Source: Gammaproteobacteria bacterium (lineage in GTDB: Bacteria > Pseudomonadota > Gammaproteobacteria > Eutrophobiales > Eutrophobiaceae). From it: a DNA stretch of 64,000 nucleotides. Positions 17,617-42,742 of this stretch are shown here, in pieces. The DNA is taken from contig JBFIJV010000001.1 of NCBI GenBank assembly GCA_041600575.1, positions 33 through 64,032 of the forward strand. The letters run 5' to 3'. Below the pieces are notes generated by a model. That model was given only the letters and a program-made list of their open reading frames with translations. It was not told where the DNA came from and made no database searches. The stretch's first letter is position 1; each line of letters opens with the position of its first letter. Both the position numbers and the translations under genes were made by a program.

Positions 17617-20600
17617 GCCTAACAAATTGTTTAAAAAGTTTAGACATCAGCAAAGATACTGCTAAAGACGTAAAACGTATTGCACGTTCTTACCGAGAAG
17701 ATGACGGAATGAGTCCCAACGACGCAAGCCTTGCCGCAGCAAAAGACATTCTCTCCGATCTTATTGATTACAGAAATCAAATCTCAGAAGAAATTGAAAG
17801 CAAAGGGCATGAAGCCCCTCGTAGGTCAGAAGCAGCAGTCAAGGCAGACTTGACAGAAGGAGGCAGGACGGCTAAATTAAGCCGTAAGTGGCCTATTGAT
17901 CCCAGTGATGATATCCCTACCGCCTTGGTTAAAACGATTGGCGCGGATATGGATAACTTTGTAACAGAGCTGTCCGACAAGAAGTCGATGGCAGACATAG
18001 CGAACGACGTTGCTAAGCAAGTTAAGGTGCAGGAAGCTGCACCATTACCTAATCCAGACCAGACTCCTCAGACAGCGCAAGCAGCGTTTCTAGAAAAGAG
18101 GCGCAACAAGCCAGATATGCCTTATGAATACTGGCTGACAATGACGGATGAAAACGGCAAAGAGATTGTGGATGATTTGCATGTCCCGATGACGGCGACT
18201 GTTCTTGAGTTCAAGCGCGAAGGTGTTATTGAGATTGACATAAGCTCCTTTAAGAAAGGGAATGGCGGCAATGTCATATATCAAGTTGTTGCTAACTACG
18301 CGCTTAATAACGGTTTAAGATTTCAAGGTGATAGGCAGGGCTTGTCTCCGATAGCACGAATTAGACGTACTGAGCAGATGTTAGCGGCGGCAGCAAAAGC
18401 TGGAACAACTACCCATTTACTGCCGCACCATTGGCAGTATCAAGGCGAAACCGGAACTGAAAATGTTGAAGGTGTTGTTAGGCTAGACTGGAGAAGAGAC
18501 GAAGACAACCACAACTTAAAAGAAATGGTTAACTCGCTGACAGACACATGGCACAATTTAGTGCCTTCACTGAACGAGATGACCTACAATTTTGAAACGG
18601 AGAGGTTTGAGAATGAAGAAGGACAACTTATCGAAGACGGTGTATTCGAAGACGCAGCCGAGTCTGCACGAGCTAATGAACTCCAGAAAGAAGGAGGGGG
18701 AAGCCTTGGTTACACAGATGAACAAGGCATACCAGCAGGGAGCGGCTCGCTTAAAAGAGCTGTATATTTCAAAGCAGCCAGAGGTTTACAAGGACAAGCC
18801 GCTGAGCTACTTTCGGGGCAAGATGATAGGCTCGCCAAATATGTTCGGGGATTTAAAAAGAATACAAAAGACGGAAAAATAAGTTACTCCCGCAAAATCA
18901 CTCCTGAAAAAACAGAAGTCATACCTAACTTCTCTATTATCACTCCATCAATTGTCAGTCAGTCGTCACAAGACGTACAGCAGGTTGATGGTTGGTTGAA
19001 GTATCTGCAGAACAAAGGCGTTAAGAAGGAAGAAATGGAAGCGCTCGGACTGACTGCTGAGGAACTATCGTCACTTTCTTTGGAATTATTTAAAAACAAT
19101 AAAAAATACAAAAACCCAAAGCAACTATCTAAAGAAGATCTGCTTGAGTATATTGACAATCAGTCAAATCAACTCAAATTTATCGAGGAGTTTAGAGTTG
19201 GGAACAGATCTTCTTATTCCAATATGATTCTTCCAGAAGATTACGGTAAAAAAACCGGATATTTTGTCTCTGTGGTTGACTCACCTAAAGCGCCTTGGCA
19301 AAAATTGCCCACTTTTACAGAGCATTTTATTGGCGAAAACGATGATAGTTATAATAATTTTGCTCATTACAGAGCAACAATTAGGGAGGATGCTAACAGC
19401 AAGCGGTTTCTATTAATAGAGGAGCTGCAATCTGACGGACACCAACGCGCACGAAAGAACGGTTATGAGGATAGAGACCTCTCATCGGAAGATGCAGACC
19501 TCACCAGCAAAATGACAGCGGTTGGCGAAAACATACAAGACATTGATGTGTTTCTGGAAGACACGCACAACCAATTAGATTCGCTGATTGATAGCGCTAC
19601 GAATGATTTTGATTTTGAATTAAAAAAAATGTCCCTTAAGTTTGTTTCTGGATTAAAAAAGAATGATAGCTACAACGAAAAGGTTCAGAAAGTATTCAAA
19701 AACAGAAGCCTTCCGGACGACGAAGGGCTGTTTAATTTAATGAAGGAATATCTTGATACCTTAGATAAAGCGACTAAAAAAATTGATGAGGCGTTCAATA
19801 AGGCAGGTATAGACCTAAGAGTTGCAACTTCTAACAACAGCAGATCCATGACCCATAAACCAGAACTATTTGGTTTAATGCCTTTAGAAACAGAAGCCAT
19901 TTTAACCCAAGGCAGTATCTGGGATATAACGTCTCTCACCGAGATATCAAAAGCTATTTCTGGTGCTACTGAGAGCGCTAACTTAAATATGCGCAAAGTT
20001 CCGTATATGCCAATGAAGGTTGGTTGGGAAATGTTTTTGATAAAGAAGGCGATGGTATTTGCCAAGAAAAACGGATTAAAACAAATACGCTTCCCTGCTA
20101 CTTATGAGCAAGTTGATCTCATAGAAAAATGGGGGGGCACCGAACTCCCCGGAATGGAAACTATAGCCAAAAGATACACTGAAAAACTACCCCGACAAAT
20201 AAACAGTCTTATTAAAAAGTATGGAAGCAAGGTTGAAAAAACAGAATTCAAAGTAAAAGAAAAAGACAGTATATTGAAGAAACGTCAGGCTGAAGATATT
20301 ACCTTGATATATCAGAGCGCTGATCCTGTGATAATTAAAGTCCCAATAAGAGCAACAAGTATTATTCATTCAATCGAAGGTGACAGTTTAGTCCCTATGA
20401 CAGTGCAGGAGTATGACGAAACCGAAATTGGAGAAGAGGTTTATGTTGTTGGATATACAACCAAGGATTCTCAAACGAATGGCAGTACATCAAGAGCTAT
20501 AAAAAGGCACTTCTCTAACACCACTACATCAAACAATATACGAGATATTGTCGGTTACGATCTGTATGAGCAAAGCCTCTTCGCAGAAGATAGGAGTAGT

Positions 20601-23423
20601 GCAGAGAATTTAATGGTTCACCTTAAGCGTGACATGGAAGAAGAATATCAGCGGGCACTTGATTTAATAAATAATCCACCAAAGAAAACAGACGAACTAA
20701 ACTCATTCGAGATAACACCTGAGCTTGAAGAGTACATCGACAACATGACGATGTTCTCTCGTAAGATGAATGAAGGAACGTCTTATGACAGGAATAACCA
20801 AGTTGAGCCTGAAGTTTTCTACCACGACACAAGCCAGCCTACTGCATCAGAAAGCGCGTCAATAACTTCACGAGTAAAAGAGTTTATTGATGGCTTCCGC
20901 TACGAAATGCAGGATAAGCATATCTATTTGAAGCGTGCTCAAGAATTAGCTGGCGACGTATCTGAGTCAGAAGATGCTTATGGAGCAGAGTCACTCTGGC
21001 AGGGCAAAGCCGGTGAAGTTATTGGTCAGTTTGGTAAATCACAAGCCGAGCCAATCATGAAGAAGATCGGTGAGACTGGCATGGAACTAGAAGAGGTTGA
21101 GCGTTGGTTGCACGCACGCCACGCTGAAGAAGCTAACCGCTATCTTCGTGGTATAAACCCTAACCGTAACGATAACGATGCATTGTCAGGTATGACTGAC
21201 CAAGAAGCATTGCAAATACTGGCCACTAATCAAGGGAATGAGGCATTACAAGAAGTGGGCAGCATGATTGATAATTTAAACAACAGTCGTCTCGATATGA
21301 TGCTGGAATACGGACTGGTTGATGCAGATTCTGTTGCCGCATGGCGAGCGACTTATGAGCATTACGTTCCATTGCGACGCGAGGAGCAGGAAGATCTGAT
21401 CTCCGCACGTGCATCCGGTTTTAATATTCGTGGCAAAGAAAGTCGTGAGCGTTTAGGTTCCACGCTGCCTGTTACTAATATACTGGCACACACCTTTGCT
21501 CAGTACGAGAACAGCATTGTTCGTGGTGAAAAGAACATTGTTGGTCAGGCGCTGTTTAATTTTGCGCAGGCCAATAACTCTTCTGGCTGGTGGACTATCG
21601 ATGAATTGAAACAGGTCGGCAAAGTTAAAGACGGTGAGGTGCAGTGGTTTAATGATCCGCGTGAGACCGACGAAGAACTGAATGTTAAAATAAACGGCAC
21701 AACCCATCGTATTCGTTTTAACAGGAATAATAAGAGCGCTATTCGCATACTCAAGGCAATGAAAAATCTTGAGAGCAAGGAGATGAATCCATTCATCAAG
21801 ACGTTGCTGGGTATTAACAGGTTCCTGAGTAGCATTAATACATCTTTCTCACCTGAGTTTATTATCTCCAACTTTACGCGTGACTTGCAGACAGCCGGCT
21901 ACAATCTGGGCGACACTGAATTATCCAGTATGGAACTAAGTGTCATGAAAAATGTACCGGGCGCAATTAAAGGCTTGAAACAGAATATTCGTGGTGACAG
22001 GACTGATACCGCGTGGTCTCAGTGGGCAGAGCGATTCCGTTTGGCTGGAGGCAAGACCGGTTGGATAGACAATATGAACAATATTGAAGACCGTCACTCA
22101 AAATTAGAGAAGCAATTACAGCGAATCAGAAAAGGCAAAGCGCCTCGAAGTGTATTTATGTCTTTTATTCACATGGTTGAGGACTACAACTCTATTGCTG
22201 AGAACGCAGTGCGTCTCGCCGCATTTAAGACAGCCGTAGAAAACGGCGTATCAGAGCAAAAAGCAGCGATTTTAGCCAAGAATTTGACCGTAAACTTTAA
22301 TCGCAAGGGAATGTCAGGCTCGACAATGAACGCGCTGTATCTCTTCTATAATGCCTCTATTCAGGGTTCTACGCGTATGCTACAAGCAATGGTCAAATCA
22401 AAGAAAGGCCGTATGTTGGCAGCGGCCACGATAGGTCTCTCAGTGGGCTTGGATATTATGAACCGCGCTATGTCTGGAGACGACGATGATGGTGAAAACA
22501 TCTATGACCAGATACCGGATTACGTGAAAAGCCGTAACTGGATAATAATGGGTGAGAAAGAGCCGATAGTTAAGATCCCATTGCCTTGGGGTTACAACGT
22601 TCTTCATATCATAGGACAACAGATTGGCAAGGGATTCACAGGAAAGGACTTCAATGCGCTGGACTCCACCGGTGTTGTCATGAAAGGCATAATCGATTCG
22701 TTCAACCCGGTAGGTAGCGGCACGTTGTTACAAACCGTATCTCCGACAATTGGTGACCCTGCTGTGATGATAGCTGAAAACAAGAACTGGGCAGGTCAAC
22801 CACTTAAACCAGACCAATTGCCGTTCGGAGTTAATAAACCTGAGTACCAAATGCATTGGCGCAAACACAACGACACTATTATGAAAGACGTGTCGAAGTT
22901 CCTCAACGACTTGTCAGGTGGCGACAGTGTGCGGCCGGGCGCGATAAACATCTCGCCAGAATGGATCGAGGTCTTTAGTGACTTCGCAACAGGTTCTGCT
23001 GGCCGGGTAGTATCAAACACATTTTCAACAGCACGCAAAGCCGTTGCTGGTGAAGAGTTGCCTACTCAGGAAATCCCTTTTATACGCAAAGTGACCGGGT
23101 TTGATTCAGAGCGACAGTTACAGTCTCGCTACTACGAACGCGTTGAGGATATTCAATATCACCGTAAACAGCTTGATGCGGCCAAGGTTAGCAGGGATAA
23201 AGAGGTTTCTAAGCAGTTACTGTCAAATCCACGCACTCAATTACTTAAGCTGGAAAAAGACGTGTCAAAGGCGCTCAAGAAGCTAAGTCAAAACAAACGT
23301 AAGATTGAGCAGTCCAGCCTGTCAGATAAAGACAAAGAGAAGCGTGTCGAAAAAATCGACAGCATAATTCGAATGTACCAAGCGCGATTTAGCCGGCTGT
23401 ACTCTGAACGCGTCAAGTCTTAG
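17613..23423 (+). CDS. Giant protein (1936 aa) of unknown function. Likely a virion-associated or injected protein
   Basis: Uninterrupted 5.8-kb ORF at the distal end of the late operon. No Walker A and no T7/N4-type RNAP motifs found. Confidence 0.6.
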   Translation: MSLTNCLKSLDISKDTAKDVKRIARSYREDDGMSPNDASLAAAKDILSDLIDYRNQISEEIESKGHEAPRRSEAAVKADLTEGGRTAKLSRKWPIDPSDDIPTALVKTIGADMDNFVTELSDKKSMADIANDVAKQVKVQEAAPLPNPDQTPQTAQAAFLEKRRNKPDMPYEYWLTMTDENGKEIVDDLHVPMTATVLEFKREGVIEIDISSFKKGNGGNVIYQVVANYALNNGLRFQGDRQGLSPIARIRRTEQMLAAAAKAGTTTHLLPHHWQYQGETGTENVEGVVRLDWRRDEDNHNLKEMVNSLTDTWHNLVPSLNEMTYNFETERFENEEGQLIEDGVFEDAAESARANELQKEGGGSLGYTDEQGIPAGSGSLKRAVYFKAARGLQGQAAELLSGQDDRLAKYVRGFKKNTKDGKISYSRKITPEKTEVIPNFSIITPSIVSQSSQDVQQVDGWLKYLQNKGVKKEEMEALGLTAEELSSLSLELFKNNKKYKNPKQLSKEDLLEYIDNQSNQLKFIEEFRVGNRSSYSNMILPEDYGKKTGYFVSVVDSPKAPWQKLPTFTEHFIGENDDSYNNFAHYRATIREDANSKRFLLIEELQSDGHQRARKNGYEDRDLSSEDADLTSKMTAVGENIQDIDVFLEDTHNQLDSLIDSATNDFDFELKKMSLKFVSGLKKNDSYNEKVQKVFKNRSLPDDEGLFNLMKEYLDTLDKATKKIDEAFNKAGIDLRVATSNNSRSMTHKPELFGLMPLETEAILTQGSIWDITSLTEISKAISGATESANLNMRKVPYMPMKVGWEMFLIKKAMVFAKKNGLKQIRFPATYEQVDLIEKWGGTELPGMETIAKRYTEKLPRQINSLIKKYGSKVEKTEFKVKEKDSILKKRQAEDITLIYQSADPVIIKVPIRATSIIHSIEGDSLVPMTVQEYDETEIGEEVYVVGYTTKDSQTNGSTSRAIKRHFSNTTTSNNIRDIVGYDLYEQSLFAEDRSSAENLMVHLKRDMEEEYQRALDLINNPPKKTDELNSFEITPELEEYIDNMTMFSRKMNEGTSYDRNNQVEPEVFYHDTSQPTASESASITSRVKEFIDGFRYEMQDKHIYLKRAQELAGDVSESEDAYGAESLWQGKAGEVIGQFGKSQAEPIMKKIGETGMELEEVERWLHARHAEEANRYLRGINPNRNDNDALSGMTDQEALQILATNQGNEALQEVGSMIDNLNNSRLDMMLEYGLVDADSVAAWRATYEHYVPLRREEQEDLISARASGFNIRGKESRERLGSTLPVTNILAHTFAQYENSIVRGEKNIVGQALFNFAQANNSSGWWTIDELKQVGKVKDGEVQWFNDPRETDEELNVKINGTTHRIRFNRNNKSAIRILKAMKNLESKEMNPFIKTLLGINRFLSSINTSFSPEFIISNFTRDLQTAGYNLGDTELSSMELSVMKNVPGAIKGLKQNIRGDRTDTAWSQWAERFRLAGGKTGWIDNMNNIEDRHSKLEKQLQRIRKGKAPRSVFMSFIHMVEDYNSIAENAVRLAAFKTAVENGVSEQKAAILAKNLTVNFNRKGMSGSTMNALYLFYNASIQGSTRMLQAMVKSKKGRMLAAATIGLSVGLDIMNRAMSGDDDDGENIYDQIPDYVKSRNWIIMGEKEPIVKIPLPWGYNVLHIIGQQIGKGFTGKDFNALDSTGVVMKGIIDSFNPVGSGTLLQTVSPTIGDPAVMIAENKNWAGQPLKPDQLPFGVNKPEYQMHWRKHNDTIMKDVSKFLNDLSGGDSVRPGAINISPEWIEVFSDFATGSAGRVVSNTFSTARKAVAGEELPTQEIPFIRKVTGFDSERQLQSRYYERVEDIQYHRKQLDAAKVSRDKEVSKQLLSNPRTQLLKLEKDVSKALKKLSQNKRKIEQSSLSDKDKEKRVEKIDSIIRMYQARFSRLYSERVKS

Positions 23424-23861: not shown

Positions 23862-24791
23862 TTACAGCGATAGTGGTCGCAAACTTACACTCTTCGCTGA
23901 GCCTAGCACAGCACGGCGGACTTTATCGACCTTACTTGGCGCATAAATCGCTTCTGTAGTAGACTTGTCTGCATGGCCGAGCTGGGATTGAGCTGTCTCC
24001 AAGTCATAGTCTTGGCGAAGCCTGTTACCGCATGTTCTGCGTAAATCATGCAAACGTAAGTCCGGGGAGCCAATGGTGTTTCGTAATGTTCGCCATTGGT
24101 TCCTCAACCACCAGTACGATACTGGTTTCCCGTCTTTACTGAACGCATAATCACTTAACGGTTGACGACGAATAATCTCCAGTGCCTGCGCACTGAGGTA
24201 ACGACACTCCCATCGACCCGACTTATTATCGTCCGGGGCGAGCATAGCTTCGTCACCATGAATATTGCATTGCTTCAACGTTAACGCTTCGCGTGCGCGA
24301 AACCCGGTCTCCAAATAGAACATCACCAAATCTTTCAACAGGCCGCTACTGTTTTCAAGCAGCAACACGTTCTCCTCTGGTGTCAATATCCTTCTGCGCG
24401 GCTGCTGCTGTTTGCGGTCTGCCTTTGAATATTGTCTATCGAAGAAAGGGTTTCGTAGTTCCCAGTCGAGTTCCTTATTGCAGTAACGAATCGCGGAAGA
24501 CGCAACTGTGATTTCACGCGCAATCGTCGCCGGCGCAATGCCTTTGGTTTTACGCCACTCACGGTATTGTCTTACATCCTCGCCCACAATCATCCCTCGT
24601 ATTTTCATTTCAGCCAACTTCTTGCTCTTAAAATAATCTTTTAATGGCAGTGAACACGTTCCGTCGCGCTGTTGCGAACTGAACTTATTCTCTTTATTGC
24701 CCTGTCGTAAGTACAACGTTATTACTTCACTGAATGTTTTCACCATAGCAATTTCTCCTACGCTACGGCTTCCCACATCAAATGTTTTCAT
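23862..24791 (-). CDS. int: Tyrosine integrase (P4-like)
   Basis: C-terminal 'HDLRRTCG' (HxxR) and 'AIYAPS' catalytic Tyr. 'FRAREAL' box Arg. Adjacent to the attP tRNA fragment. Confidence 0.85.
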   Translation of the reverse strand: MKTFDVGSRSVGEIAMVKTFSEVITLYLRQGNKENKFSSQQRDGTCSLPLKDYFKSKKLAEMKIRGMIVGEDVRQYREWRKTKGIAPATIAREITVASSAIRYCNKELDWELRNPFFDRQYSKADRKQQQPRRRILTPEENVLLLENSSGLLKDLVMFYLETGFRAREALTLKQCNIHGDEAMLAPDDNKSGRWECRYLSAQALEIIRRQPLSDYAFSKDGKPVSYWWLRNQWRTLRNTIGSPDLRLHDLRRTCGNRLRQDYDLETAQSQLGHADKSTTEAIYAPSKVDKVRRAVLGSAKSVSLRPLSL

Positions 24792-24912
24792 AATCTCTCC
24801 ATAATTTCAATTGTAATTTACCGAGAACGTCTATTCTGATAACACGACAACCTGTTGTGACGTGTTAACCAATTCTCTTTCCTGATCTTGCGTTTGCACA
24901 CTTTTAGCTTCC

Positions 24913-25335
24913 TCATTGATCGTGATAAATTCTTGCGTACTCTTGCCATTGAACCCAGCCTTCCTCAGTCCAAAAACCCCACTCTCTTATTTTTCTGCTT
25001 GTGAAGACAAGTGAGATACAGCCGCCTTCTTTAACCTCAACAATACGATGACTGTCTTCGGCTTTAATGATGTTGAGCCAACGTCTTCTTATGTAATAAC
25101 CACTTCTATTTTCAATGTAATTACCTTTTAAGATAAACGAGATGAAGCTGGCTGGATGGTCGTGACTGTGACGCTGTTTATCAGGGTGATAAAACATGTT
25201 GGCCATAATGGTAAACAACGGACAGTGAAAAAAATAAAGGCGACGCATATAAAGCACGCCATCAGTTTCTATATCTTTCCAGCGCCAGAAAGCAAACTTA
25301 CTGCCGTGAGTATATTCGCGTCTTTTTTTATTCAT
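24913..25335 (-). CDS. Hypothetical protein (140 aa) with an HxD...H pattern
   Basis: ORF upstream of int. Contains 'YHPDKQRHSHDHP'. Confidence 0.4.
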   Translation of the reverse strand: MNKKRREYTHGSKFAFWRWKDIETDGVLYMRRLYFFHCPLFTIMANMFYHPDKQRHSHDHPASFISFILKGNYIENRSGYYIRRRWLNIIKAEDSHRIVEVKEGGCISLVFTSRKIREWGFWTEEGWVQWQEYARIYHDQ

Positions 25336-25607
25336 GCATAACCTTCTTTACTGTTCGGTATAATTTTTAAATGTTGTGCTTTAAATAGTGGTTTTTGTAC
25401 CGTACTGAAAATATTCCATCACTCATACAACACCCATCCTGATAAACACTATTAATGTCAATACACTTATACATTAACCCCCTTTAATGCTTTTTTAATG
25501 GCAATAGTTGCCTCTACTAATGCCTCGATAGATTTCATTATCTGAGAAATTACAAAGATAAACACCTTCTTCATCAGTCAACCTATCGTTTACACTTATC
25601 CATTCGC

Positions 25608-25838
25608 TCATACATCACCCTCTTCAATCTCGGTTATTAATCTATTGCCTGCCCTTAGTGCAGCGCCAGATATGCGGTTTAATATTCCGCCAGTTCGTTC
25701 GTTAATACTTGTCAACGCGTCTTCGTACATAGTGGCTTTTCTTAAAACACGAAGATGCGCCTCCGATAGAGTTGTGTTCTGCTCTTTTAATATTCGCAGC
25801 TCTTCTTTGTAATCGACTTCAGTTTTAATTTTAGCCAT
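25608..25838 (-). CDS. Hypothetical coiled-coil protein (76 aa)
   Basis: ORF. Confidence 0.4.
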   Translation of the reverse strand: MAKIKTEVDYKEELRILKEQNTTLSEAHLRVLRKATMYEDALTSINERTGGILNRISGAALRAGNRLITEIEEGDV

Positions 25839-26242
25839 CTAGTTGTTCCTGTTATTCATGTTAGAGAGAAGCGCCCAGCCCAAGTAAGTTACACAGCAAA
25901 CATTAACAAAAGTTAATTTAAGGGCTGGGTGCTTCATTTATTAACCAACACGCTGTCAGGTATAACAACATGCTCATCATCAATCTTTATAACAATATCA
26001 ATATCCACCTGCGCCAGACCGTAAGCGATAGCCACCGACAGGACACACCTACCCATGAAGCTAGCTAACGCTTCCATGAGAAACTCCTCCACTTACCTCT
26101 GAGTTATCAACTGTAAACGCTTTAAGTTCTTTCACTTGAGCTAAAAAAGAAAGCAGCTCTGGTGAATACTCATCAAATCTTGACGTGTCGATAAAACGCG
26201 TCATTTCGTAGGCAAGACCCATGTAGTCGTTCTCACTAGCAC

Positions 26243-26554
26243 TCACCATAATGTCTTTCTCGCTATTTCACCCTTATCTTCCATAACAGGAATAACCATT
26301 GAGCCTTTCTTGTGTTCGCTGAGTGCTGACTTGTAATTGTCGTCGTTAGCATAAAACTCCAACGTGTCACGCAGCGCCATTATTTCCTTGTCTTTATCAA
26401 CAAGCTGTTCTCTGCAAACGTTGGTCAATGACTTGCGCAAGCAAATATTTTCTCGCTCCAAGTGTCGCGCAAAATCAGCGCTAACAACGGAGTTGTTTGG
26501 CCAGTTGTTTATTTCTGGATGACTTTCTTTGTCTGTCAATGGTGTATCGCTCAT
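26243..26554 (-). CDS. Hypothetical protein (103 aa)
   Basis: ORF. Confidence 0.4.
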   Translation of the reverse strand: MSDTPLTDKESHPEINNWPNNSVVSADFARHLERENICLRKSLTNVCREQLVDKDKEIMALRDTLEFYANDDNYKSALSEHKKGSMVIPVMEDKGEIARKTLW

Positions 26555-26754
26555 GAGTTAGTAAACCTCCGCTCTTTTTTTATTTTTTGACTCTCGACAT
26601 ACACCTTACTGCAGCCTTTGCATTTAGTGCCTTTGCCCATCACGCCACCACAGACCCACGCAAATTCATCGAGTGACTTCTCTATCTCGCACGTAATGCA
26701 AGTACGAAGACGTGACCTTAAATAATCCTTTTTAGCTGGTCTCTTGGCTCTCAT
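26551..26754 (-). CDS. Small zinc-ribbon protein (67 aa)
   Basis: CxxC...CxxC pattern. Overlaps the csrA-like stop in another frame. Confidence 0.4.
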   Translation of the reverse strand: MRAKRPAKKDYLRSRLRTCITCEIEKSLDEFAWVCGGVMGKGTKCKGCSKVYVESQKIKKERRFTNS

Positions 26755-26905
26755 TTCTTGCCTTTACCTCCTCTCGTAAAATGTTTACGTCTTTAGGTGC
26801 ATCAAAACCTAGCTTGACTTGATTCTTGTCAATTGAAATAACAGTAACTGTCATGTCGTCTCCGATATGAACTGACTTGCCTAACTTAACGCCTAGTAAC
26901 AACAT
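26732..26905 (-). CDS. csrA: CsrA/RsmA-family RNA-binding protein homologue (57 aa). Absent from the ORF track
   Basis: Translation is MLLLGVKLGKSVHIGDDMTVTVISIDKNQVKLGFDAPKDVNILREEVKARNESQETS. It aligns along its whole length with CsrA (ML.L....G....IGD.VTVTV......NQV.+G..APK.V...REE+). AGAGGAAG RBS 8 nt upstream. Starts 18 nt after the helicase stop. Confidence 0.7.
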   Translation of the reverse strand: MLLLGVKLGKSVHIGDDMTVTVISIDKNQVKLGFDAPKDVNILREEVKARNESQETS

Positions 26906-26922
26906 AATTATTCTTCCTCTTA

Positions 26923-28509
26923 TTAAAATTTATAATCAACAACGTTCTCATGCTTTCCGTTTCTTACTATTTTTATTTGCTTCGGTTTATTTAATAAACG
27001 TGTTTGCATTAGCGACTCCGATACAGTTGCAGGCGCGTAAAGCCCTCCGTGAGTCGCCCACCATTGTTCTGCTTTCTTGCGTGCGTAACCGGTGTGCTCA
27101 ACACAAACCCATTCGTTTATTTTTCTAAGGCCGCAACTGTAAATAACGCGCAACGTGTTCTTCTTTGTTTTCTTCGAAACGTGTGGCATATAATCGATGC
27201 GCTGAATGTCATGCCACTCAGGTTTAATGTCGTCAGATAACAGTGCCGACTCTGAGGCGTAAGCGTTATGATTTATTTCGCGCTCAAGTGTTGGGTACTC
27301 AAAGCCGCACACACATTCTTTAAGCTGAATAGGATTAATTGTTTGGCACTCAGGACATTCTCTTGTTGGCGCAACGCCCGGCCTGCCGCTTTTGCCGTCA
27401 GGGACTGACAAGTTATCAATGCAACCGTGTGTTGAAACATTGCCGGCAAAGTCCATAATCAAACAGTCTGTTTTACCCGCTGCTTTTCTAAGACCTCGAC
27501 CAACCATTTGATAGTACAACCCCACCGACTTCGTGGGTCGAAGTAACGCAATCAAATCTATGTGGGGAGCATCAAAACCTTCCGTCAAAATATTGACGTT
27601 GATTAAACAGCGTAATTTCTTGGCCTTGAAGTCTGCAATATACTGGGCACGCAAATCACTTGATGTGTCGTCGGTCAATACTTCCGCGTGAATACTGTGG
27701 TCACTAATTAAGCTGTTTTTGACGTACTCAGCGTGCAACTTGTTGACACAAAAAATAACCCACCCTTCTCTCGGCTTATTAAAGTCAAGACCAACATGCG
27801 CTATCTCTTTGCACGCTGACATGGTGATTGCATGGTCGTGAGCGATAATACTTAACGAACCCTGTGTGTAATCACCCTTGCCATTAGCAACAAGATTAGA
27901 TGTGTCTATTTTTTGTTTGCCACCACGAGCAACAACGCGAGACAAGTACCCCTCGTCGATAAGTCGTTTAACACTCGCTTCGTAAGCAACGTTTTGAAAC
28001 ATTTTTCTCGCGCCATATATTTTCCCGCTACCCATACGGTAAGGCGTGGCAGTGAAGCCGATGACGCGCAAGTTCGGATTAACCAGCATCAGTTTACTGA
28101 TAAGCTGTTGGTACATGCTGCTCTCTTCTTGGCTCACCCTGTGAGCCTCATCGATAAACAGCAGATCGTAGTGGCCAAGGTTGCTAGCGCGGTAAACACT
28201 CTGAACCCCAGCGAACACAATATTGGCGTGCAGTTCTTTTGCGCCTAGCCCAGCAGAGTAGGTTGCTATATCCCCATCGTAGGCGCTCTTTAGTTCGTCT
28301 CGGTTTTGTTCTACCAACTCCTTGGTGTGTACAGCGTTCATGATGCGCGTGTCAGACCACAGCGAAGTGTATTTACGAATTATCTCGGCCATGATGTAGC
28401 TCTTGCCGCCGCCAGTAGGAATAACCACCAACGGGTTGCCGGTCTCTTGCCGTAAATAAGCATCTACTGCTGTGAGTGCTTCCTGTTGGTATTTACGTGA
28501 CTCCATCAA
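26923..28509 (-). CDS. SF2 DEAD/DEAH-box DNA helicase with a C-terminal zinc finger
   Basis: Walker A 'PTGGGKS', 'FIDEAH' DEAH box, 'GFTATP' motif III, 'QMVGRGLR' motif VI, C-terminal CPEC...CVCG. Confidence 0.8.
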   Translation of the reverse strand: MMESRKYQQEALTAVDAYLRQETGNPLVVIPTGGGKSYIMAEIIRKYTSLWSDTRIMNAVHTKELVEQNRDELKSAYDGDIATYSAGLGAKELHANIVFAGVQSVYRASNLGHYDLLFIDEAHRVSQEESSMYQQLISKLMLVNPNLRVIGFTATPYRMGSGKIYGARKMFQNVAYEASVKRLIDEGYLSRVVARGGKQKIDTSNLVANGKGDYTQGSLSIIAHDHAITMSACKEIAHVGLDFNKPREGWVIFCVNKLHAEYVKNSLISDHSIHAEVLTDDTSSDLRAQYIADFKAKKLRCLINVNILTEGFDAPHIDLIALLRPTKSVGLYYQMVGRGLRKAAGKTDCLIMDFAGNVSTHGCIDNLSVPDGKSGRPGVAPTRECPECQTINPIQLKECVCGFEYPTLEREINHNAYASESALLSDDIKPEWHDIQRIDYMPHVSKKTKKNTLRVIYSCGLRKINEWVCVEHTGYARKKAEQWWATHGGLYAPATVSESLMQTRLLNKPKQIKIVRNGKHENVVDYKF

Positions 28510-28543
28510 GCCACTTCTTCCCAGTCAAGATTGTGTTTTTTCA

Positions 28544-28750
28544 TTAGTTGCTCTCAAACGTTGCGTGCTGCTTTCCGCAGTAGCACTCGAATTTAGGATA
28601 GCCGCATGAGTCACACAAGCCGCAGTACGCATGTCCTAAAGTGCCTGCTTCATGGCAGTTAGCTCTATCCAAATCATCATCAACAGGGTCGCGCCCTGTT
28701 AACTTTTTAAACTCAGACTCATTCATCGTCTTCTTTTTTCTCCACTGCAA
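28544..28750 (-). CDS. Small Cys-rich protein (68 aa)
   Basis: Eight Cys/His in 40 aa. Confidence 0.35.
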   Translation of the reverse strand: MQWRKKKTMNESEFKKLTGRDPVDDDLDRANCHEAGTLGHAYCGLCDSCGYPKFECYCGKQHATFESN

Positions 28751-29834
28751 TCGTAGCGTCGAACCCTTTTAATAAGTTGTGAAACTCTTCATCATCAAGC
28801 ATCAACAGGTTGTCAATTGCATACAGCTCTTCGCTGGTGAAACACCTGCTGCCATCGTGATTGCTGTTATAAAATACTTTTCCTGATGGCAGTTTGTAGC
28901 CGACATAATTATCTTCATCACTACCCTCTTCAACAGGGAGATTAATTATGTCGGGGATAAATACATGGTCGGCGCAGCCTTTGCGTTGCGCGGTACGTGA
29001 CAAGACCTTCTCGTGCATTGAGCAAGACCACGAACCCTTATCTTCTTCTTCGTTAACAATTGGTGTGCTATGTGCACACGTACGGCAATTCATTTGCGGT
29101 GCTTTTTCTGTGTGACACAAATCTTTATAGTCACACCAACCACAAATATAATAATTAGGATCTTCCGACACTCGATCTAACGGCACAGGCGATTCAATAA
29201 TTTTCTTAGCGCGTGACAATGTGTCGTCAATTGCGTTCTGCTCTGGCTCAAGCAACTCTGTTATGCAGCTTATGTACTCACGACCACCGGGAGAACTAAC
29301 GGTTAGATAGTGCTTCGACATGCCACTGTATTTCATGTACAGCACAGCCTGTATATAATATGTCCAGTCCCACGCAGCTAAAGCAAATTGCTCTCCCTTT
29401 TCTTCAACAAGTTTTTCAAGTTTATTTAACTTCTTTAAGTCAACTTGCTTGTGCTCCCAAACGTACCAACCACGCGGGTCTTGGACGAGGCCACTAATTG
29501 CGCCATCCATGTGGCCAAGAAAATGACCGCTAACATCCTTATACTCGAACTGGTAGCCTGTACCGTAATCAACCGTATGTAACTCAATACCCGGCAACAT
29601 CTTGAGACGTGATGCCATTATATCTTCGCCTAAATGACCATCAGCAAAACGTCTTAATGTTGCTGCGTTGAAGTTTGATTTTTCTACCCATCGAAATTCA
29701 TACCACAACTTCCTGCGACAAGGATGCCCAACACCCGACATGCCCAAGTAGGCACGCTTACGCTCTGCGTTTTCTTTTTTCTCTATCGCAGCATCGACTG
29801 CTAACAATGTTGGATCTAGTCTTGGTAATTTCAT
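28719..29834 (-). CDS. PD-(D/E)XK nuclease (YqaJ/Cas4-like) with a C-terminal Cys cluster
   Basis: 'GHMDG' ... 'WEHK' (D...ExK) core. C-terminal CGWC...C...C..C Cys-rich tail. Recombination-module context. Confidence 0.6.
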   Translation of the reverse strand: MKLPRLDPTLLAVDAAIEKKENAERKRAYLGMSGVGHPCRRKLWYEFRWVEKSNFNAATLRRFADGHLGEDIMASRLKMLPGIELHTVDYGTGYQFEYKDVSGHFLGHMDGAISGLVQDPRGWYVWEHKQVDLKKLNKLEKLVEEKGEQFALAAWDWTYYIQAVLYMKYSGMSKHYLTVSSPGGREYISCITELLEPEQNAIDDTLSRAKKIIESPVPLDRVSEDPNYYICGWCDYKDLCHTEKAPQMNCRTCAHSTPIVNEEEDKGSWSCSMHEKVLSRTAQRKGCADHVFIPDIINLPVEEGSDEDNYVGYKLPSGKVFYNSNHDGSRCFTSEELYAIDNLLMLDDEEFHNLLKGFDATIAVEKKEDDE

Positions 29835-30256
29835 AATGACTGCCTATAGTGTTTATCTAGCTTTAAATGGATGGGTTTTCTTAATACTAATTTGTTCATG
29901 ATTTTTTCATTGATAAATTCACTATCACTTACATCGCAAAGAAGTCCCGAACGACTGTCATACCAAGCACGCAGAATATTGCTTGCTCCTTCCACAAACA
30001 GGTATTGGTCTTGATGTACTTGCACGTAAGTGGGCATCACTCCGCCAAACATGTTTGAGAACTTCATGTATAAGCATTTTGGAAAGTGACCAGACTCTTT
30101 GTATATAGGGTTTTCTTGAATTTCAAGGAAGAACTGTTCAATCAGTACACCACGAACAACTTCTCTCATGTCGGTAGGTTTATTCACGATTGCTGAGTCT
30201 CTAGGCATAGCGACACCATCATAAGATTGACAAAATGTGCCGCTATGCCTAGACAA
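29831..30256 (-). CDS. Hypothetical protein (141 aa)
   Basis: ORF. Confidence 0.4.
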   Translation of the reverse strand: MSRHSGTFCQSYDGVAMPRDSAIVNKPTDMREVVRGVLIEQFFLEIQENPIYKESGHFPKCLYMKFSNMFGGVMPTYVQVHQDQYLFVEGASNILRAWYDSRSGLLCDVSDSEFINEKIMNKLVLRKPIHLKLDKHYRQSL

Positions 30257-32092: not shown

Positions 32093-32394
32093 ACAAAAAA
32101 ATACCCGCGAAACAAGTCACAGAGGGTGCGACTCGTTAAGCGGGATAAAAGTAGGAGATAACCAAATACAACATGCAATAAATAAAACACCGTCCATCGA
32201 ACAGGATTAGGCGCATCAGACACAACAGCAACGTGCACACAGCGGCATTGGCTTTCCGCGATGGCAAGTAGGGGAGTTTGGGGATTACTTCTATGTTGAT
32301 GCAGCATCTAATTTCCTTCTCCTGTTGATGAACGGTACAGGACGGATATTAGACTACCGACTTTCGGGTGTCAAGCCTATGTTGCTATTAAGTG

Positions 32395-32427: not shown

Positions 32428-33066
32428 TTACAGCAAACTGGTTGTTTTGAATACAGCAGTACCGACGATAGCTTCCTCCTCCATCATGGGTCGGGTTTTG
32501 TTAGGCATTGACTCGCTTTGGTGAGAAACGAATTCAGTTCCAGCGTCTTCCGAGTACAACCGAAGCGCAAACGAACCTTTAGCCTTGTTATAAAGAAGCA
32601 CTATATCGCCTGACGCATAATCATGGTCAGGATCGACATACACACAATCACCTTTCTCAACTGTAGGCGACAACATGTTGTCGTGCGCAATAATTGCAAA
32701 CGCATTACTCCCTATAGTGCTGGGACAAATCACATTATTATTGTTATTGGTGGCCATATACTTTTCTAGATACCCCGGAAGCTCCGAAAGTGTGAGCAGC
32801 GGAACATAAAAAACCCCCTCTGTTATATCCTTGAAATCATCATTAATGTTGCTTTCATCATCGACCAGCCACTTGAGTGGCGCACCGGTTAACTCGGCTA
32901 GTTTTTTAAGTTGTGCAATGTTTGGGTTTGTTCGAACAGAAGCGTTCGATTGTTCCCACAATGAGATTGCCGCACGCGTGCACCCCATTTGATCCGCAAT
33001 GTCCGTTTGCGAAACATCCGCTGCTTTACGAGCAGCTTTAATCCTTTGCCATAGCTCTGATGGCAT
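32428..33066 (-). CDS. cI: CI-like repressor: N-terminal XRE HTH plus C-terminal S24 (LexA-like) autopeptidase
   Basis: 'VSQTDIADQMGCTRAAISLWE' HTH. C-terminal S24-like segment with candidate Ser ('HDNMLSP') and Lys ('YNKAKG'). GAGAGG RBS before ATG 33066. The track's upstream extension to 33138 was rejected. Confidence 0.75.
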   Translation of the reverse strand: MPSELWQRIKAARKAADVSQTDIADQMGCTRAAISLWEQSNASVRTNPNIAQLKKLAELTGAPLKWLVDDESNINDDFKDITEGVFYVPLLTLSELPGYLEKYMATNNNNNVICPSTIGSNAFAIIAHDNMLSPTVEKGDCVYVDPDHDYASGDIVLLYNKAKGSFALRLYSEDAGTEFVSHQSESMPNKTRPMMEEEAIVGTAVFKTTSLL

Positions 33067-33130
33067 AACGAATACCTCTCTGGTTACATGGAACGTATTT
33101 ATTTCCTCTTTAAAGTCACTACAAAGCGAA

Positions 33131-33177
33131 ATTGACAACCGAAAAATAAAAGCGTAGCTTTCGGCCTGTCAATATAA
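33131..33177. promoter_or_regulatory. Divergent cI/cro switch: back-to-back promoters embedded in a long inverted repeat (operator)
   Basis: TTGACAACCGAAA ...15 nt... TTTCGGCCTGTCAA. Each arm supplies a TTGACA -35 for one direction. Rightward -10 is TAGCTT and leftward -10 is TTATTT. Confidence 0.5.
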
Positions 33178-33412: not shown

Positions 33413-33494
33413 CTTGTACACAAAGGGTAGACCCGAAGGTGGTCTTTGTCAAGGTTAGGTTGCATAGGATAGGGGGATATAGGTGGTAGAGGAC

Positions 33495-35810
33495 ATGAAG
33501 CAATACGCAGAATTATATATTAATAAGGGCTGGAAAGTGTTGCCACTACACAGTGTCAGCGATACCGGTAAATGCACATGCGGTGATGAAAAGTGTACAT
33601 CAGCCGGCAAACACCCCATCCACGATAAGCAGCTTTGTCCATCGGGCGTGCATAGCGCAAGCGACAATATCAATGTGATCTACAAGTGGCTTTCGAAGTA
33701 CCCTTTTATGAATATCGGAATTGCCACCGGGCAAGATTCGAACTTAACCGTGCTAGATGTGGACGGTCGCAAGGGCGGTATCGGGACAGTTGAGCATTTG
33801 TACGGGGATGATGGCGAAGACTTACTCGACACCTCAGAACTCGTTGTCAGAACCGGTGATGGGTTTCATTTGTTTTACAGCTACGACCCCATTGCAAAGA
33901 ACGGCAGTAACCGCATGGTCGGTGTAGACATACGCAGTACCGGCGGTTACATCGTCGCACCCCCATCACGACATGCCTCTGGCAAACAGTACGAATTTAT
34001 CGACGAAGAATACTTGGACGAAACAACCCAGGGCGCATTACCCCAATCAATCCTCAAGCTGTTGTCACAATCCAGCAATAGCACGAAGGTCGCTTCTTCA
34101 GCCACAGCATCCCAGCCCTCCCCGGCCAAACCAGCAATCCCTTTATCAGATACAGAAAAAGAAGACATAGCCGGCGCAATTAAACATATCCCGGCAGACG
34201 AACGCGACACATGGATTCGCGTGGGCATGGCATTACACAGCACTGGGGCGGGACACGAAGCCTTTGAGATTTGGGACACGTGGTCACAGACCACCAAAAG
34301 CGGTAATTACCGGTACAAGGACGCGCTGATTAATTGGCGTAGTTTCAAGGATGGCGACGTGACAATCGCCAGCTTGTTCGGGTTAGCGCAGGAACACGGT
34401 TACATGTACGCACCGCAGGCTGGTACGCGCATACAGTTACAGCAGTCTAGCGAAGAGCCGTCTAGCGAATACACAGCGGAAGAGCTGGACTTACAAGACC
34501 TGACTGGCGTAGGCCACAAGCGCAAAGCCATCCCGGCCAAGTTACTGCAGCTCAACGGCACCATGCAGGACATTATGAACCATATTTTACAAGCCTCAGT
34601 GAGACCTCAACCTGTGCTGGCGTTAGCCAGCACGCTGTCATGTTTCGGGACAATCATCGGTCGGCGTTATTCCACCGGGTACGGCGGTGAAGAAACACGC
34701 AGCAACGTGTTTGTCGTAGGTTTAGCACCCAGCGGCGCAGGTAAAGATATCACAATGAAGATGACCACCAAGATTTTAGAAGCCGGGAACCTGTTTGACC
34801 GCGTGGGCGCAAGCAAGATAGGCAGTGGCAGCGGGTTGCTGCATGACTTAGGGACGAATCACTGTCAGCAGTACCAGCTAGACGAATTTGGTTTGGCCTT
34901 ACAAAGCATGACCAGTTCAGGCAGTTCGCAGCACACGAAGGAAGTGATTAGTACGCTAATGGAATTGTACTCGTGCGCGGCAGGAACCTACCAAGGCGGC
35001 GCGTACGCCACCAAGCAGCGTGTGCGTATCGAGCAACCGCACTGTTGCGTATACGGCGTGAGCACGCCAGAGGAATATTACAAGGCATTTAACAGCGGGT
35101 TTGGTAACAACGGCTTTTTCGGGCGCTGGCTCGCGTTTGAAGTTATGGAAGATGTGCCGAAACGCCGCGTCCCGAAGGGCGCGGGGGATATTGATCCGCA
35201 GTTGGCCAAGCGGATTGAGACGTACGCGATGTACGAGAACATGCCAGTCAACGGCAACATGACGCATTACGTGCATGACGTGCCAATGACTCCGGATGCA
35301 GAACTCTTGTTTGATGGTTTTGCCGACTACGCAGAGCAGCAATCAAAGAGACACGAGTTGCGTGGTGATAGCGTGGGCACACGAATCTGGGCACGCGCTG
35401 TTGAGAACTCTCGAAAGCTAGCGCTTTTATGGGCGTGCAGTGAGCGAGCGAAAGACCCGGAAATTACCATTACCGCGATTGAGTGGGCGACAGCATTAAT
35501 CACCCATTTAGTTGAAGACCAAATTATCGCAATGGAGAACCATGTCTCCGATACCGAGAACGAATCACTCCACCAAATGTTAATGAATGTTATCTCGATA
35601 GGTGGGGCGCGAGGGATTCCAGCAGCACAATTTAAACGAAAATATGTACGCAAGTTAGGAGCAAGACGTTTCAACGAAATCATGCGGGAATTGATTGATT
35701 TGAACGTTATTGAAATGTTCAAAGTAAAGGGAGAGGTGAAAACACTGCTCGATAAGCCAGTAACCCGGTATCGACTAAGTGTGTACACACCGTCGGGGGA
35801 AGATAAGTGA
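33495..35810 (+). CDS. Bifunctional primase-polymerase (prim-pol) with a D5/P4-type helicase or NTPase C-terminal domain
   Basis: N-terminal 'VLDVDGRKGG', 'GGYIVAPPSRH' prim-pol motifs with a Cys4 cluster. Walker A 'GLAPSGAGKD'. A GTG at 33483 is an alternative start. Confidence 0.7.
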   Translation: MKQYAELYINKGWKVLPLHSVSDTGKCTCGDEKCTSAGKHPIHDKQLCPSGVHSASDNINVIYKWLSKYPFMNIGIATGQDSNLTVLDVDGRKGGIGTVEHLYGDDGEDLLDTSELVVRTGDGFHLFYSYDPIAKNGSNRMVGVDIRSTGGYIVAPPSRHASGKQYEFIDEEYLDETTQGALPQSILKLLSQSSNSTKVASSATASQPSPAKPAIPLSDTEKEDIAGAIKHIPADERDTWIRVGMALHSTGAGHEAFEIWDTWSQTTKSGNYRYKDALINWRSFKDGDVTIASLFGLAQEHGYMYAPQAGTRIQLQQSSEEPSSEYTAEELDLQDLTGVGHKRKAIPAKLLQLNGTMQDIMNHILQASVRPQPVLALASTLSCFGTIIGRRYSTGYGGEETRSNVFVVGLAPSGAGKDITMKMTTKILEAGNLFDRVGASKIGSGSGLLHDLGTNHCQQYQLDEFGLALQSMTSSGSSQHTKEVISTLMELYSCAAGTYQGGAYATKQRVRIEQPHCCVYGVSTPEEYYKAFNSGFGNNGFFGRWLAFEVMEDVPKRRVPKGAGDIDPQLAKRIETYAMYENMPVNGNMTHYVHDVPMTPDAELLFDGFADYAEQQSKRHELRGDSVGTRIWARAVENSRKLALLWACSERAKDPEITITAIEWATALITHLVEDQIIAMENHVSDTENESLHQMLMNVISIGGARGIPAAQFKRKYVRKLGARRFNEIMRELIDLNVIEMFKVKGEVKTLLDKPVTRYRLSVYTPSGEDK

Positions 35811-41731: not shown

Positions 41732-41737
41732 TTTGTA

Positions 41738-42738: not shown

Positions 42739-42742
42739 GTCA

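What the first reader, a model, noticed from the sequence alone, without database searches (positions are those of the whole stretch)
26732..26905. A phage-encoded CsrA/RsmA homologue hidden below the ORF-size cutoff
A 57-aa minus-strand ORF starts 18 nt after the helicase stop, behind an AGAGGAAG RBS. It translates to MLLLGVKLGKSVHIGDDMTVTVISIDKNQVKLGFDAPKDVNILREEVKARNESQETS. This is collinear with bacterial CsrA across its whole length (ML-L, IGD-VTVTV, NQV-IG-APK-V, REE). The RNA-binding arginine of the 'VHREEIY' region is retained. A CsrA protein encoded inside the early/recombination operon of a temperate phage would let the phage rewire host post-transcriptional regulation during lytic growth or in the lysogen. 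It could also act as a sponge or competitor for host CsrA targets. The gene overlaps the next Zn-ribbon ORF by 23 nt in another frame.
Basis: partly seen in the sequence, partly recalled or inferred. Interest (0 to 1): 0.78.

Follow-up and report, generated by a model that had tools for sequence, protein, structure and literature searches.

The report
Phage-borne CsrA RNA-binding regulator gene
A small gene in the early operon of a novel temperate phage really does encode a CsrA-family RNA-binding regulator, but phage copies of this regulator are already catalogued, so this is a divergent new example whose one unusual trait is the loss of a normally conserved arginine.

Summary
The 57-aa ORF at 26732..26905 (-) exists exactly as described. 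It scores 70.6 bits on Pfam CsrA (cut-off 27), and its AlphaFold protomer matches solved CsrA/RsmA/RsmE chains at TM 0.82-0.93. It is a real gene under selection: a related phage contig carries a 69%-identical copy in the same place, after the helicase and before an overlapping Zn-ribbon ORF. The gene lies in the leftward early operon of an SOS-type temperate phage and has no promoter of its own. It is therefore most likely made on infection or induction, not in the lysogen. The idea is not new. Phage CsrA/RsmA genes are catalogued in the literature (2020, 2021), have a PHROG family and occur in 87 GenBank phage records. One was shown by knockdown to affect plaque size (2025). The unusual feature is Val at position 6. 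Arg6 is present in about 94% of close homologues and in 46/48 viral copies, and mutating it impairs RNA binding or regulation in several species. Arg44 and the other key residues are kept. Host, RNA targets and dimer formation could not be determined. Verdict: a new, divergent member of a known kind, of modest interest.

The parts
26732..26905 (-). csrA-like CDS, 57 aa (MLLLGVKLGK...REEVKARNESQETS)
   Evidence: ORF confirmed. Pfam CsrA 70.6 bits against a cut-off of 27. PHROG 9500 'CsrA-like regulator' at 1.5e-17. PDB sequence hits to RsmE and CsrA at 4.5e-12 and 3.4e-11. AF2 pLDDT 87.8. Foldseek TM 0.82-0.93 to CsrA chains. Orthologue 69% identical with pN 0.22 and pS 0.78.
26913..26920 (-). 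Shine-Dalgarno AGAGGAAG, 7 nt upstream of the ATG
   Evidence: Read directly. The orthologous contig has AAGAGGAA in the same position.
26923..28509 (-). Upstream SF2 DNA helicase (ResIII + Helicase_C). Its stop lies 17 nt before the csrA start, so the two genes are inferred to be co-transcribed.
   Evidence: The orthologue is 65% identical and is followed by csrA after a 13-nt gap.
26551..26754 (-). Downstream 67-aa Zn-ribbon ORF overlapping csrA by 23 nt. Its GAGGAGG ribosome-binding site is formed by the csrA codons for Arg44-Glu45-Glu46.
   Evidence: It is conserved in the orthologous contig (61% over 44 aa, also overlapping). PHROG hits to endonuclease Zn-binding regions are weak.
32346..32374 (-). 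PL-like sigma-70 promoter candidate (TTGACA-17-TAATAT) at the head of the leftward early operon that contains csrA
   Evidence: Consensus scan. The total number of promoter-like sites does not exceed the shuffle expectation, so its function is inferred only from its position just downstream of the repressor gene.
32428..33138 (-). CI/LexA-type repressor (HTH_3 + Peptidase_S24), inferred to keep the early operon, and therefore csrA, off in the lysogen
23862..24791 (-). Tyrosine integrase at the distal end of the same leftward gene string, which marks the phage as temperate
   Evidence: Phage_integrase, 47.8 bits against a cut-off of 27.1.

Best explanation
The ORF is a genuine CsrA/RsmA-family gene maintained by selection and resident in a temperate phage. 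It is translated from its own Shine-Dalgarno sequence on the long leftward early transcript, which also encodes Sak4, SSB, a Cas4-like exonuclease and the helicase. That transcript starts at a PL-like promoter and is presumably silenced by the S24-type repressor in the lysogen. The protein would therefore appear within minutes of infection or SOS induction. It most likely forms the family's interlocked homodimer and binds GGA-containing RNA sites through the beta1/beta5 surfaces, with Arg44 intact. This would change the translation or stability of host transcripts, and possibly phage transcripts, in favour of lytic development. Examples would be damping CsrA-controlled defence, motility or metabolic programmes, or shifting the balance between host CsrA and its sponge RNAs. 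Shown here: gene reality, family membership, protomer fold, operon position and conservation. Inferred: timing of expression, dimerisation, RNA binding and targets. The Val6 and Lys10 substitutions suggest that its affinity or specificity differs from that of housekeeping CsrA.
For: Family and fold. Key residues L2, L4, K7, P37, V40, I42, R44, E46 and V47 are typical of the family. Selection and synteny: the orthologue in L083 lies directly after a 65%-identical helicase, and the locus is collinear across six genes. pN is 0.22 for csrA against 0.25 for the helicase, with pS saturated at 0.78. Operon context and the lack of its own promoter or terminator. Precedent: phage RsmA/CsrA homologues are widespread and correlate with hosts that have CsrA (PMC8450108). 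30 of 2517 phages carry one (PMC7366521). Knockdown of the csrA homologue of phage PTXU04 reduced plaque size (PMC11879866). The plasmid-borne RsmQ takes over host translational control (PMC9928087, abstract).
Against: Arg6 is replaced by Val. R6A abolishes hcnA repression by RsmE, and R6H and R6L are partial loss-of-function alleles in V. cholerae. R6A is among the eight strongest RNA-binding defects in E. coli CsrA. Normal GGA binding is therefore not assured. The TIGR00202 equivalog score is just below its cut-off (69.5 against 70.1). Dimerisation could not be modelled. The host is unknown, so no targets can be named. No GGA-in-loop hairpins or sponge-like RNAs were found in the phage.
Confidence: 0.6

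Rival explanations
1. Attenuated or antagonistic CsrA. Because Arg6 is lost, the protein binds RNA weakly. It acts mainly by forming mixed dimers with host CsrA, producing dimers with one impaired RNA-binding surface, or by selectively occupying sponge RNAs. Either way it would lower or re-tune host CsrA activity rather than mimic it.
For: Val6 occurs where Arg is found in 214/227 close homologous domains and in 46/48 viral copies. Arg6 mutants lose function. Each CsrA RNA site is built from beta1 of one subunit and beta5 of the other, so a mixed dimer would have one altered site. The dimer-interface and core residues are family-typical.
Against: The syntenic orthologue keeps Arg6, so any anti-CsrA role would be specific to this lineage rather than the ancestral role of the gene. 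Lys7 and a rare Lys10 add positive charge that might compensate. A whole Clostridia-type clade has V/L/I at position 6 and persists in nature. Identity to known bacterial CsrAs is only 40-46%, which makes heterodimerisation uncertain. None of this was tested.
Confidence: 0.15
2. Regulator of the phage's own genes. The protein mainly controls translation of phage transcripts, for example the overlapping Zn-ribbon gene or the early-to-late transition, rather than host genes.
For: The downstream gene's ribosome-binding site (GAGAGGAGG, containing GGA) lies inside csrA, and the overlap is conserved in the orthologue. The gene is tightly embedded in the replication and recombination module.
Against: No conserved hairpin presents GGA at either start site. 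The window's fold (z -2.8) is not conserved in L083. ANGGA density nowhere exceeds the shuffle expectation. More distant relatives of the module do without csrA, so it is an accessory gene and not a core timing device.
Confidence: 0.15
3. Lysogenic-conversion gene (moron) expressed from the prophage to change host physiology during lysogeny.
For: The phage is temperate. CsrA homologues on plasmids and ICEs act while resident in the host.
Against: There are only 17 nt between the helicase stop and the csrA start. There is no promoter-like site just upstream and no flanking terminators. GC content matches its neighbours. The gene sits mid-operon downstream of the repressor-controlled promoter.
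Confidence: 0.08
4. Decaying or functionless passenger ORF.
For: Loss of the conserved Arg6 and rare residues at positions 3, 10 and 18.
Against: The ORF is intact in two phages whose synonymous sites are saturated. Its non-synonymous divergence is lower than that of the adjacent helicase. The SD is conserved. The fold prediction is confident.
Confidence: 0.03

Closest known systems
Bacterial CsrA/RsmA/RsmE (E. coli CsrA, PDB 1y00; P. fluorescens RsmE, PDB 2jpp; Pfam PF02599)
   Same: Collinear over residues 1-52, with 40-46% identity. Same protomer fold (TM 0.82-0.93, rmsd about 1 A). L2, L4, P37, V40, R44 and E46 are retained.
   Different: Encoded by a phage and only 57 aa long. Val6 replaces the conserved Arg6 and Lys10 replaces Glu/Gln10. 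It scores just below the NCBIfam equivalog cut-offs. No Csr-type sponge RNA is found in the phage.
Catalogued phage CsrA/RsmA homologues (PHROG 9500; Pseudomonas phage F116 group 'RsmM'; Serratia phage Parlo, Erwinia phage Pavtok, Klebsiella phage LASTA, Burkholderia phage DC1, Providencia phage PSTCR8lys; E. coli phage PTXU04 gp28)
   Same: A small CsrA-family gene in a phage genome. In temperate examples it lies in the early region near the immunity genes (PSTCR8lys). The proposed role is host manipulation. One has a measured fitness effect. The structural matches in BFVD are these proteins.
   Different: All 87 GenBank phage records match at under 60% identity. This copy sits directly after a helicase in a Sak4-SSB-Cas4-helicase module, a position shared only with one metagenomic relative. 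It lacks Arg6, which 46 of 48 sampled viral copies keep.
Plasmid RsmQ (pQBR103) and Legionella ICE CsrT
   Same: CsrA-family regulators carried by mobile elements that act on the host's post-transcriptional network.
   Different: Those are expressed from resident plasmids or ICEs. This one is in a lytic-phase operon of a phage. No functional data exist for it.
Clostridia/Lachnospiraceae CsrA-like clade (e.g. L138, L141, L157)
   Same: A hydrophobic residue (V/L/I) at position 6 together with the invariant Arg44.
   Different: Those proteins also lack Glu46 (34 of 34), whereas the phage protein keeps Glu46. They are only 33-43% identical and their function is unknown.

Membership tests
CsrA/RsmA family (Pfam PF02599) | Profile match above the curated gathering score over the full domain | tested here: met
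   70.6 bits against a cut-off of 27, E 1.1e-19, profile positions 1-50 of 53.
CsrA/RsmA family (Pfam PF02599) | Protomer topology of five beta strands plus a C-terminal helix, as in solved CsrA chains | tested here: met
   AF2 mean pLDDT 87.8, with strands at 11-14, 18-26 and 29-35 and a helix at 45-56. Beta1 and beta5 are unpaired, as expected for a lone subunit of a strand-swapped dimer. The top 15 PDB matches are all CsrA/RsmA/RsmE, the top 11 with TM 0.82-0.93.
CsrA/RsmA family (Pfam PF02599) | Interlocked homodimer forming two beta1/beta5 RNA-binding surfaces | not testable with these tools
   The structure tool rejected two-chain input. The extended protomer conformation is compatible with the dimer but does not prove it.
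CsrA/RsmA family (Pfam PF02599) | Invariant RNA-contact arginine (Arg44) and the conserved Pro37 and Leu2/Leu4 | tested here: met
   R44 and P37 are invariant in alignment A1 and present here. R44 is found in 219/223, 146/146 and 50/50 sampled domains.
CsrA/RsmA family (Pfam PF02599) | Conserved Arg6 in beta1, needed for RNA binding or regulation and reported to form a salt bridge with Glu46 | tested here: not met
   Val6 is present here. Arg occurs in 214/227, 111/145 and 46/48 sampled domains. Functional importance is documented.
CsrA/RsmA family (Pfam PF02599) | Binding to GGA motifs in RNA hairpin loops | not testable with these tools
   This needs EMSA or CLIP. Local searches for GGA hairpins gave nothing conserved.
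NCBIfam equivalog 'carbon storage regulator CsrA' (TIGR00202, NF002469) | Score at or above the equivalog cut-off, meaning the same function as housekeeping CsrA | tested here: not met
   69.5 against 70.1 for TIGR00202, and 65.9 against 73 for NF002469. The first is a marginal miss, consistent with a diverged paralogue carried on a mobile element.
PHROG 9500 'CsrA-like regulator' (phage proteins) | Significant full-length match to the phage family profile | tested here: met
   E 1.5e-17, 64.4 bits, residues 1-55 matching profile positions 1-55 of 65.
Complete Csr/Rsm system (protein plus CsrB/RsmZ-type sponge RNA) | A cognate multi-GGA sponge sRNA encoded alongside the protein | tested here: not met
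   No Rfam family reaches its gathering score in the 64-kb window. No 200-nt window has more ANGGA motifs than the shuffles. Any sponge RNA would have to be host-encoded.

The most novel reading that the evidence does not exclude
A naturally Arg6-less phage CsrA (Val6 with Glu46 retained, plus a rare Lys10) that works as an anti-CsrA or an altered-specificity CsrA. It might poison host CsrA through mixed dimers with one crippled RNA site. Alternatively it might escape the host's CsrB/C-type sponges while still repressing a subset of targets. Either would give the phage a switch-like way to override the host's global post-transcriptional programme at induction.
Probability: 0.12. Interest if true: 0.65.

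Novelty: new member of a known kind. Interest (0 to 1): 0.3.

Why it matters
CsrA controls metabolism, motility, biofilm formation, virulence and, in some bacteria, CRISPR-Cas. Phages that carry their own copy could override those programmes. The existence of such genes is established, but their mechanism is almost unstudied: the only functional evidence found here is a single knockdown phenotype. This example adds a divergent lineage with a clear lytic-phase operon position and a natural substitution at a residue known to be important for RNA binding. That makes it a convenient test case (wild type against V6R) for asking whether phage CsrAs mimic, re-tune or antagonise host CsrA. It does not change current understanding on its own.

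Tried and rejected
Host identification failed by every route.
- Megablast of 24000-30000 against phages, and of 26400-27400 against E. coli genomes, found nothing.
- tblastn of the helicase, terminase and the 1,936-aa protein gave only hits under 60% identity, spread over Vibrio, Escherichia, Synechococcus, Pseudomonas and other phages.
- The integrase matched plasmid records at no more than 33% identity.
- Both genome-contig scans and the metagenome scan gave no relative above 57% identity.
- Exact look-ups of the window's own CsrA and helicase returned no contig record, and the cluster look-up gave no accession.
- The only ecological hint is that the orthologous contig comes from a 'crustacean metagenome'. 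No paper in the library cites that project.

Other checks that led nowhere:
- The word-indexed protein search found only the query itself. The exhaustive HMMER search was needed to find relatives.
- Phage-encoded Csr sponge RNA: none found.
- CsrA-type GGA hairpins at the csrA and Zn-ribbon start sites: not conserved.
- Independent promoter or terminator for csrA: none, and site counts equal the shuffle expectation.
- The first viral scan with alignment A1 used a pattern that required Arg6, so it could not be used for position-6 statistics. It was replaced by scans whose patterns do not touch position 6.
- My initial impression that Val6 is unique in the family was wrong. A Clostridia-type clade has V/L/I at position 6, but always without Glu46.
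- The 2026 natural-variation study of CsrA says nothing about position 6 or phages.
- PADLOC gives no defence-system hit for the protein.

Full report
OBSERVATION. The upstream helicase ORF (26923..28509, -) ends with TAA at 26925..26923. Seventeen bases follow before the ATG at 26905. AGAGGAAG lies at 26920..26913, 7 nt from the start codon. The next ORF (26551..26754, -, 67 aa, two CxxC pairs) overlaps by 23 nt in another frame. All the structural details in the finding are correct. The one inaccurate detail is 'hidden': the identical protein is already in the public protein collection, from a 64,069-base NCBI contig, with Pfam PF02599 assigned. The window is therefore essentially that whole contig.

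FAMILY AND FOLD. The peptide matches Pfam CsrA at 70.6 bits against a gathering score of 27 (E 1.1e-19, profile positions 1-50 of 53). It matches PHROG 9500 'CsrA-like regulator' at 1.5e-17. It matches solved RsmE and CsrA chains at 4.5e-12 and 3.4e-11, collinear from residue 1 to 52-55. It falls just short of NCBI's equivalog cut-offs: TIGR00202 at 69.5 against 70.1, and NF002469 at 65.9 against 73. That is what one expects of a diverged copy on a mobile element rather than a housekeeping orthologue. An AlphaFold2 model built on a 53-sequence alignment has mean pLDDT 87.8, with strands at 11-14, 18-26 and 29-35 and a C-terminal helix at 45-56. The terminal strands beta1 and beta5 are unpaired, as expected for one subunit of a strand-swapped dimer. 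The top 15 Foldseek matches in the PDB are all CsrA/RsmA/RsmE chains, the top 11 with TM 0.82-0.93 and rmsd about 1 A. In the viral structure library the best matches are named phage CsrA-like regulators from Serratia phage Parlo, Erwinia phage Pavtok, Klebsiella phage LASTA and uncultured Caudovirales. The homodimer itself could not be modelled, because the tool rejected two-chain input.

IS IT A REAL, SELECTED GENE? The exhaustive HMMER search found 8,666 relatives with E up to 0.001, but none closer than about 60% identity. The closest relative of the adjacent helicase is 65% identical and lies on a 5.4-kb contig from a crustacean metagenome (L083). That helicase is followed after 13 nt by a 54-aa Pfam-CsrA gene, and then by an overlapping 62-aa Zn-ribbon ORF. 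The two loci are collinear across six genes: exonuclease 69%, small Cys-rich ORF 39%, helicase 64%, CsrA 69%, Zn-ribbon 61% and the next ORF 47%. Synonymous sites are saturated (pS 0.78). Non-synonymous divergence of csrA (pN 0.22) is lower than that of the helicase (0.25) and the Zn-ribbon ORF (0.33). This is the signature of a protein under purifying selection, not a chance or decaying ORF. More distant helicase relatives (41-43% identity) keep the Sak4-SSB-nuclease-helicase module, but DUF6511 and PrimPol follow the helicase and there is no csrA. The gene is therefore an accessory insertion specific to this small clade.

CONTEXT AND EXPRESSION. The window is a phage genome with no host flanks.
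- Structural and packaging genes: terminase, portal, major head protein and a 1,936-aa LPD5/LPD38-like virion protein.
- Lysogeny genes: a tyrosine integrase and a repressor with HTH_3 plus Peptidase_S24 domains.
- Leftward gene string: unknown ORF, Sak4, SSB, unknown ORF, Cas4-like exonuclease, small ORF, helicase, csrA, Zn-ribbon ORF, further small ORFs, and finally the integrase.
- Rightward genes: primase, a RuvC-like resolvase and a Q-like protein.
A good sigma-70 match (TTGACA-17-TAATAT) lies at 32374..32346, at the head of the leftward string. Promoter-like and terminator-like sites overall are no more frequent than in shuffled sequence, and none flanks csrA. I infer that csrA is co-transcribed with the early replication and recombination genes. 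I also infer that it is silent in the lysogen and made on infection or SOS induction. This is an inference from layout, by analogy with lambda PL, and not a measurement.

RESIDUES. Across 250 CsrA domains from the 150 best HMMER hits, the protein has the family-typical residue at L2, L4, K7, P37, V40, I42, R44, E46 and V47. Position 6 is the exception: Arg in 214 of 227 domains, and Val only in this protein. Lys10 is also rare, at 5 of 244 where Glu or Gln is usual. Arg6 is functionally important in the literature.
- R6A in RsmE abolishes hcnA repression (PMC4526715).
- R6H and R6L are partial loss-of-function suppressors in V. cholerae CsrA, and Arg6 is reported to form a salt bridge with Glu46 (PMC4526715).
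- R6A is among the eight strongest RNA-binding defects in E. coli CsrA and is also defective in C. jejuni (PMC6692469).
The syntenic orthologue keeps Arg6 (codon AGA, against GTT here), so the change is specific to this lineage. My first impression that Val6 is unique was too strong. In 146 distinct domains recovered with patterns that do not touch position 6, 34 have V, L or I there. All 34 belong to a divergent Lachnospiraceae/Clostridia-type clade, and all 34 also lack Glu46. By contrast, 107 of 108 domains with Arg6 have Glu46. The combination seen here, a hydrophobic residue 6 with Glu46 retained, occurs in 9 of 197 domains in the first sample (Ile or Cys) and in none in the second. Among viral contigs sampled independently of position 6, 46 of 48 CsrA domains have Arg6. 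This copy is thus atypical for a proteobacterial-type or phage CsrA. Natural CsrA-family proteins can nevertheless live without Arg6. What the change does to RNA binding cannot be decided here.

SEARCH FOR PARTNERS AND TARGETS. No Rfam family reaches its gathering score anywhere in the window, so no CsrB/RsmZ-type RNA is present. No 200-nt window holds more ANGGA motifs than shuffled sequence does. The csrA start region is unstructured. The Zn-ribbon start region folds better than shuffles in this phage (z -2.8), but that fold is not conserved in the orthologue, and neither region presents GGA in a conserved loop. The host could not be named. The GC content of 42-49%, the many Vibrio-phage hits and the crustacean-metagenome relative hint at an aquatic gammaproteobacterium, but that is only a guess.

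WHAT IS ALREADY KNOWN.
- Sobrero and Valverde (2020) found csrA alleles in 30 of 2,517 phage genomes (PMC7366521).
- Campa et al. (2021) searched GenBank and IMG/VR with the Pfam model and found many phage RsmA/CsrA genes. Their presence correlates with hosts that have CsrA, and the authors proposed host manipulation, including suppression of CRISPR-Cas (PMC8450108).
- Adler et al. (2025) showed that knocking down the csrA homologue of phage PTXU04 reduces plaque size. They noted that the role of CsrA in a phage life cycle had not been tested before (PMC11879866).
- In the databases searched here, 87 GenBank phage records carry a homologue, all under 60% identical to this one. At least 440 IMG/VR stretches encode one.
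- Providencia phage PSTCR8lys places its copy beside cI.
- Plasmid RsmQ and the Legionella ICE protein CsrT are functional precedents on other mobile elements.

VERDICT. The finding is correct as to what the gene is. It is a new, divergent member of an already recognised class, and not a new kind of system. The most likely mechanism is a CsrA-type dimeric RNA-binding regulator made early in lytic development that alters translation of host, and perhaps phage, transcripts (confidence about 0.6). The most interesting reading left open is that loss of Arg6 makes it an antagonist or an altered-specificity variant of host CsrA (about 0.12). Interest is modest at 0.3. The class is known but mechanistically understudied, and this copy offers a natural variant at a residue known to matter for function.

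Noticed in passing
window 17613-23423 (+): A 1,936-aa ORF. Its C-terminal ~860 aa match PHROGs 14770 and 616 (E down to 5e-175) and are 32% identical to the LPD5/LPD38 'polyvalent' proteins of Stx-converting phages. Phage PTXU04, whose csrA homologue has the only reported phenotype, also encodes a large polyvalent protein three genes away from its csrA (PMC11879866). Any link between the two genes is unexplored.
   Followed up: partly
window 26551-26754 (-); L083 4631-4819: A conserved 62-67-aa Zn-ribbon ORF (RTCIxC...GTKCKGCSxVY) overlaps the 3' end of csrA in both phages. Its GAGGAGG ribosome-binding site is formed by the csrA codons for Arg44-Glu45-Glu46. It has only weak PHROG hits to endonuclease VII/HNH Zn-binding regions (E about 1e-3). 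Function unknown.
   Followed up: partly
window 28544-28750 (-): A 68-aa Cys-rich ORF between the Cas4-like exonuclease and the helicase, with no Pfam hit. It is weakly conserved in the orthologous contig (39% over 49 aa).
   Followed up: partly
window 40463-43892 (-): A gene block on the strand opposite to the late genes. It encodes a MoxR-like AAA ATPase (351 aa), an unknown 283-aa protein and a DUF2201 protein with putative metallopeptidase and VWA-like domains (455 aa; PHROG labels it an HNH endonuclease). It has no PADLOC hits. It may be an accessory or counter-defence module.
   Followed up: partly
window 24913-25335 (-): A 140-aa ORF between the early genes and the integrase that matches PHROG 4786, annotated 'cysteine dioxygenase' (E 1.5e-28), with no Pfam hit. 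It may be a moron.
   Followed up: no
loci L124-L166 (e.g. L138 6001-6132, L127, L150): A divergent CsrA-like clade in Lachnospiraceae, Eubacterium and Clostridiales genomes (MLxLxVxxEEYLMIGDDIKIVFLGG...IMIDAPKDVNIxRS). It has V/L/I at position 6 and no Glu46 in 34 of 34 cases, which is apparent co-variation of the reported Arg6-Glu46 salt-bridge pair. There are often several copies per genome or contig. I do not know whether it has been described.
   Followed up: partly
proteins P0002, P0013, P0054 and others: Many of the highest-scoring HMMER hits are proteins with two to four tandem CsrA domains (for example P0002, 303 aa, four matched stretches), that is, covalently linked 'dimers'. Some internal domains carry Ile or Cys at position 6.
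   Followed up: no
window 33483-35810 (+) compared with L084 and L086: Distant relatives of this replication module have helicase-DUF6511-PrimPol on one strand. Here the primase lies on the opposite strand, across the immunity region, and csrA plus small ORFs occupy the position after the helicase. This points to a module rearrangement in this clade.
   Followed up: partly
window 44955-64000 and 245-23423 (+): The late-gene string runs up to the end of the window and resumes at its start, and the integrase sits mid-window with no host genes on either side. The contig therefore looks like a complete, circularly permuted phage genome rather than an integrated prophage. Terminal overlap was not checked.
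   Followed up: no
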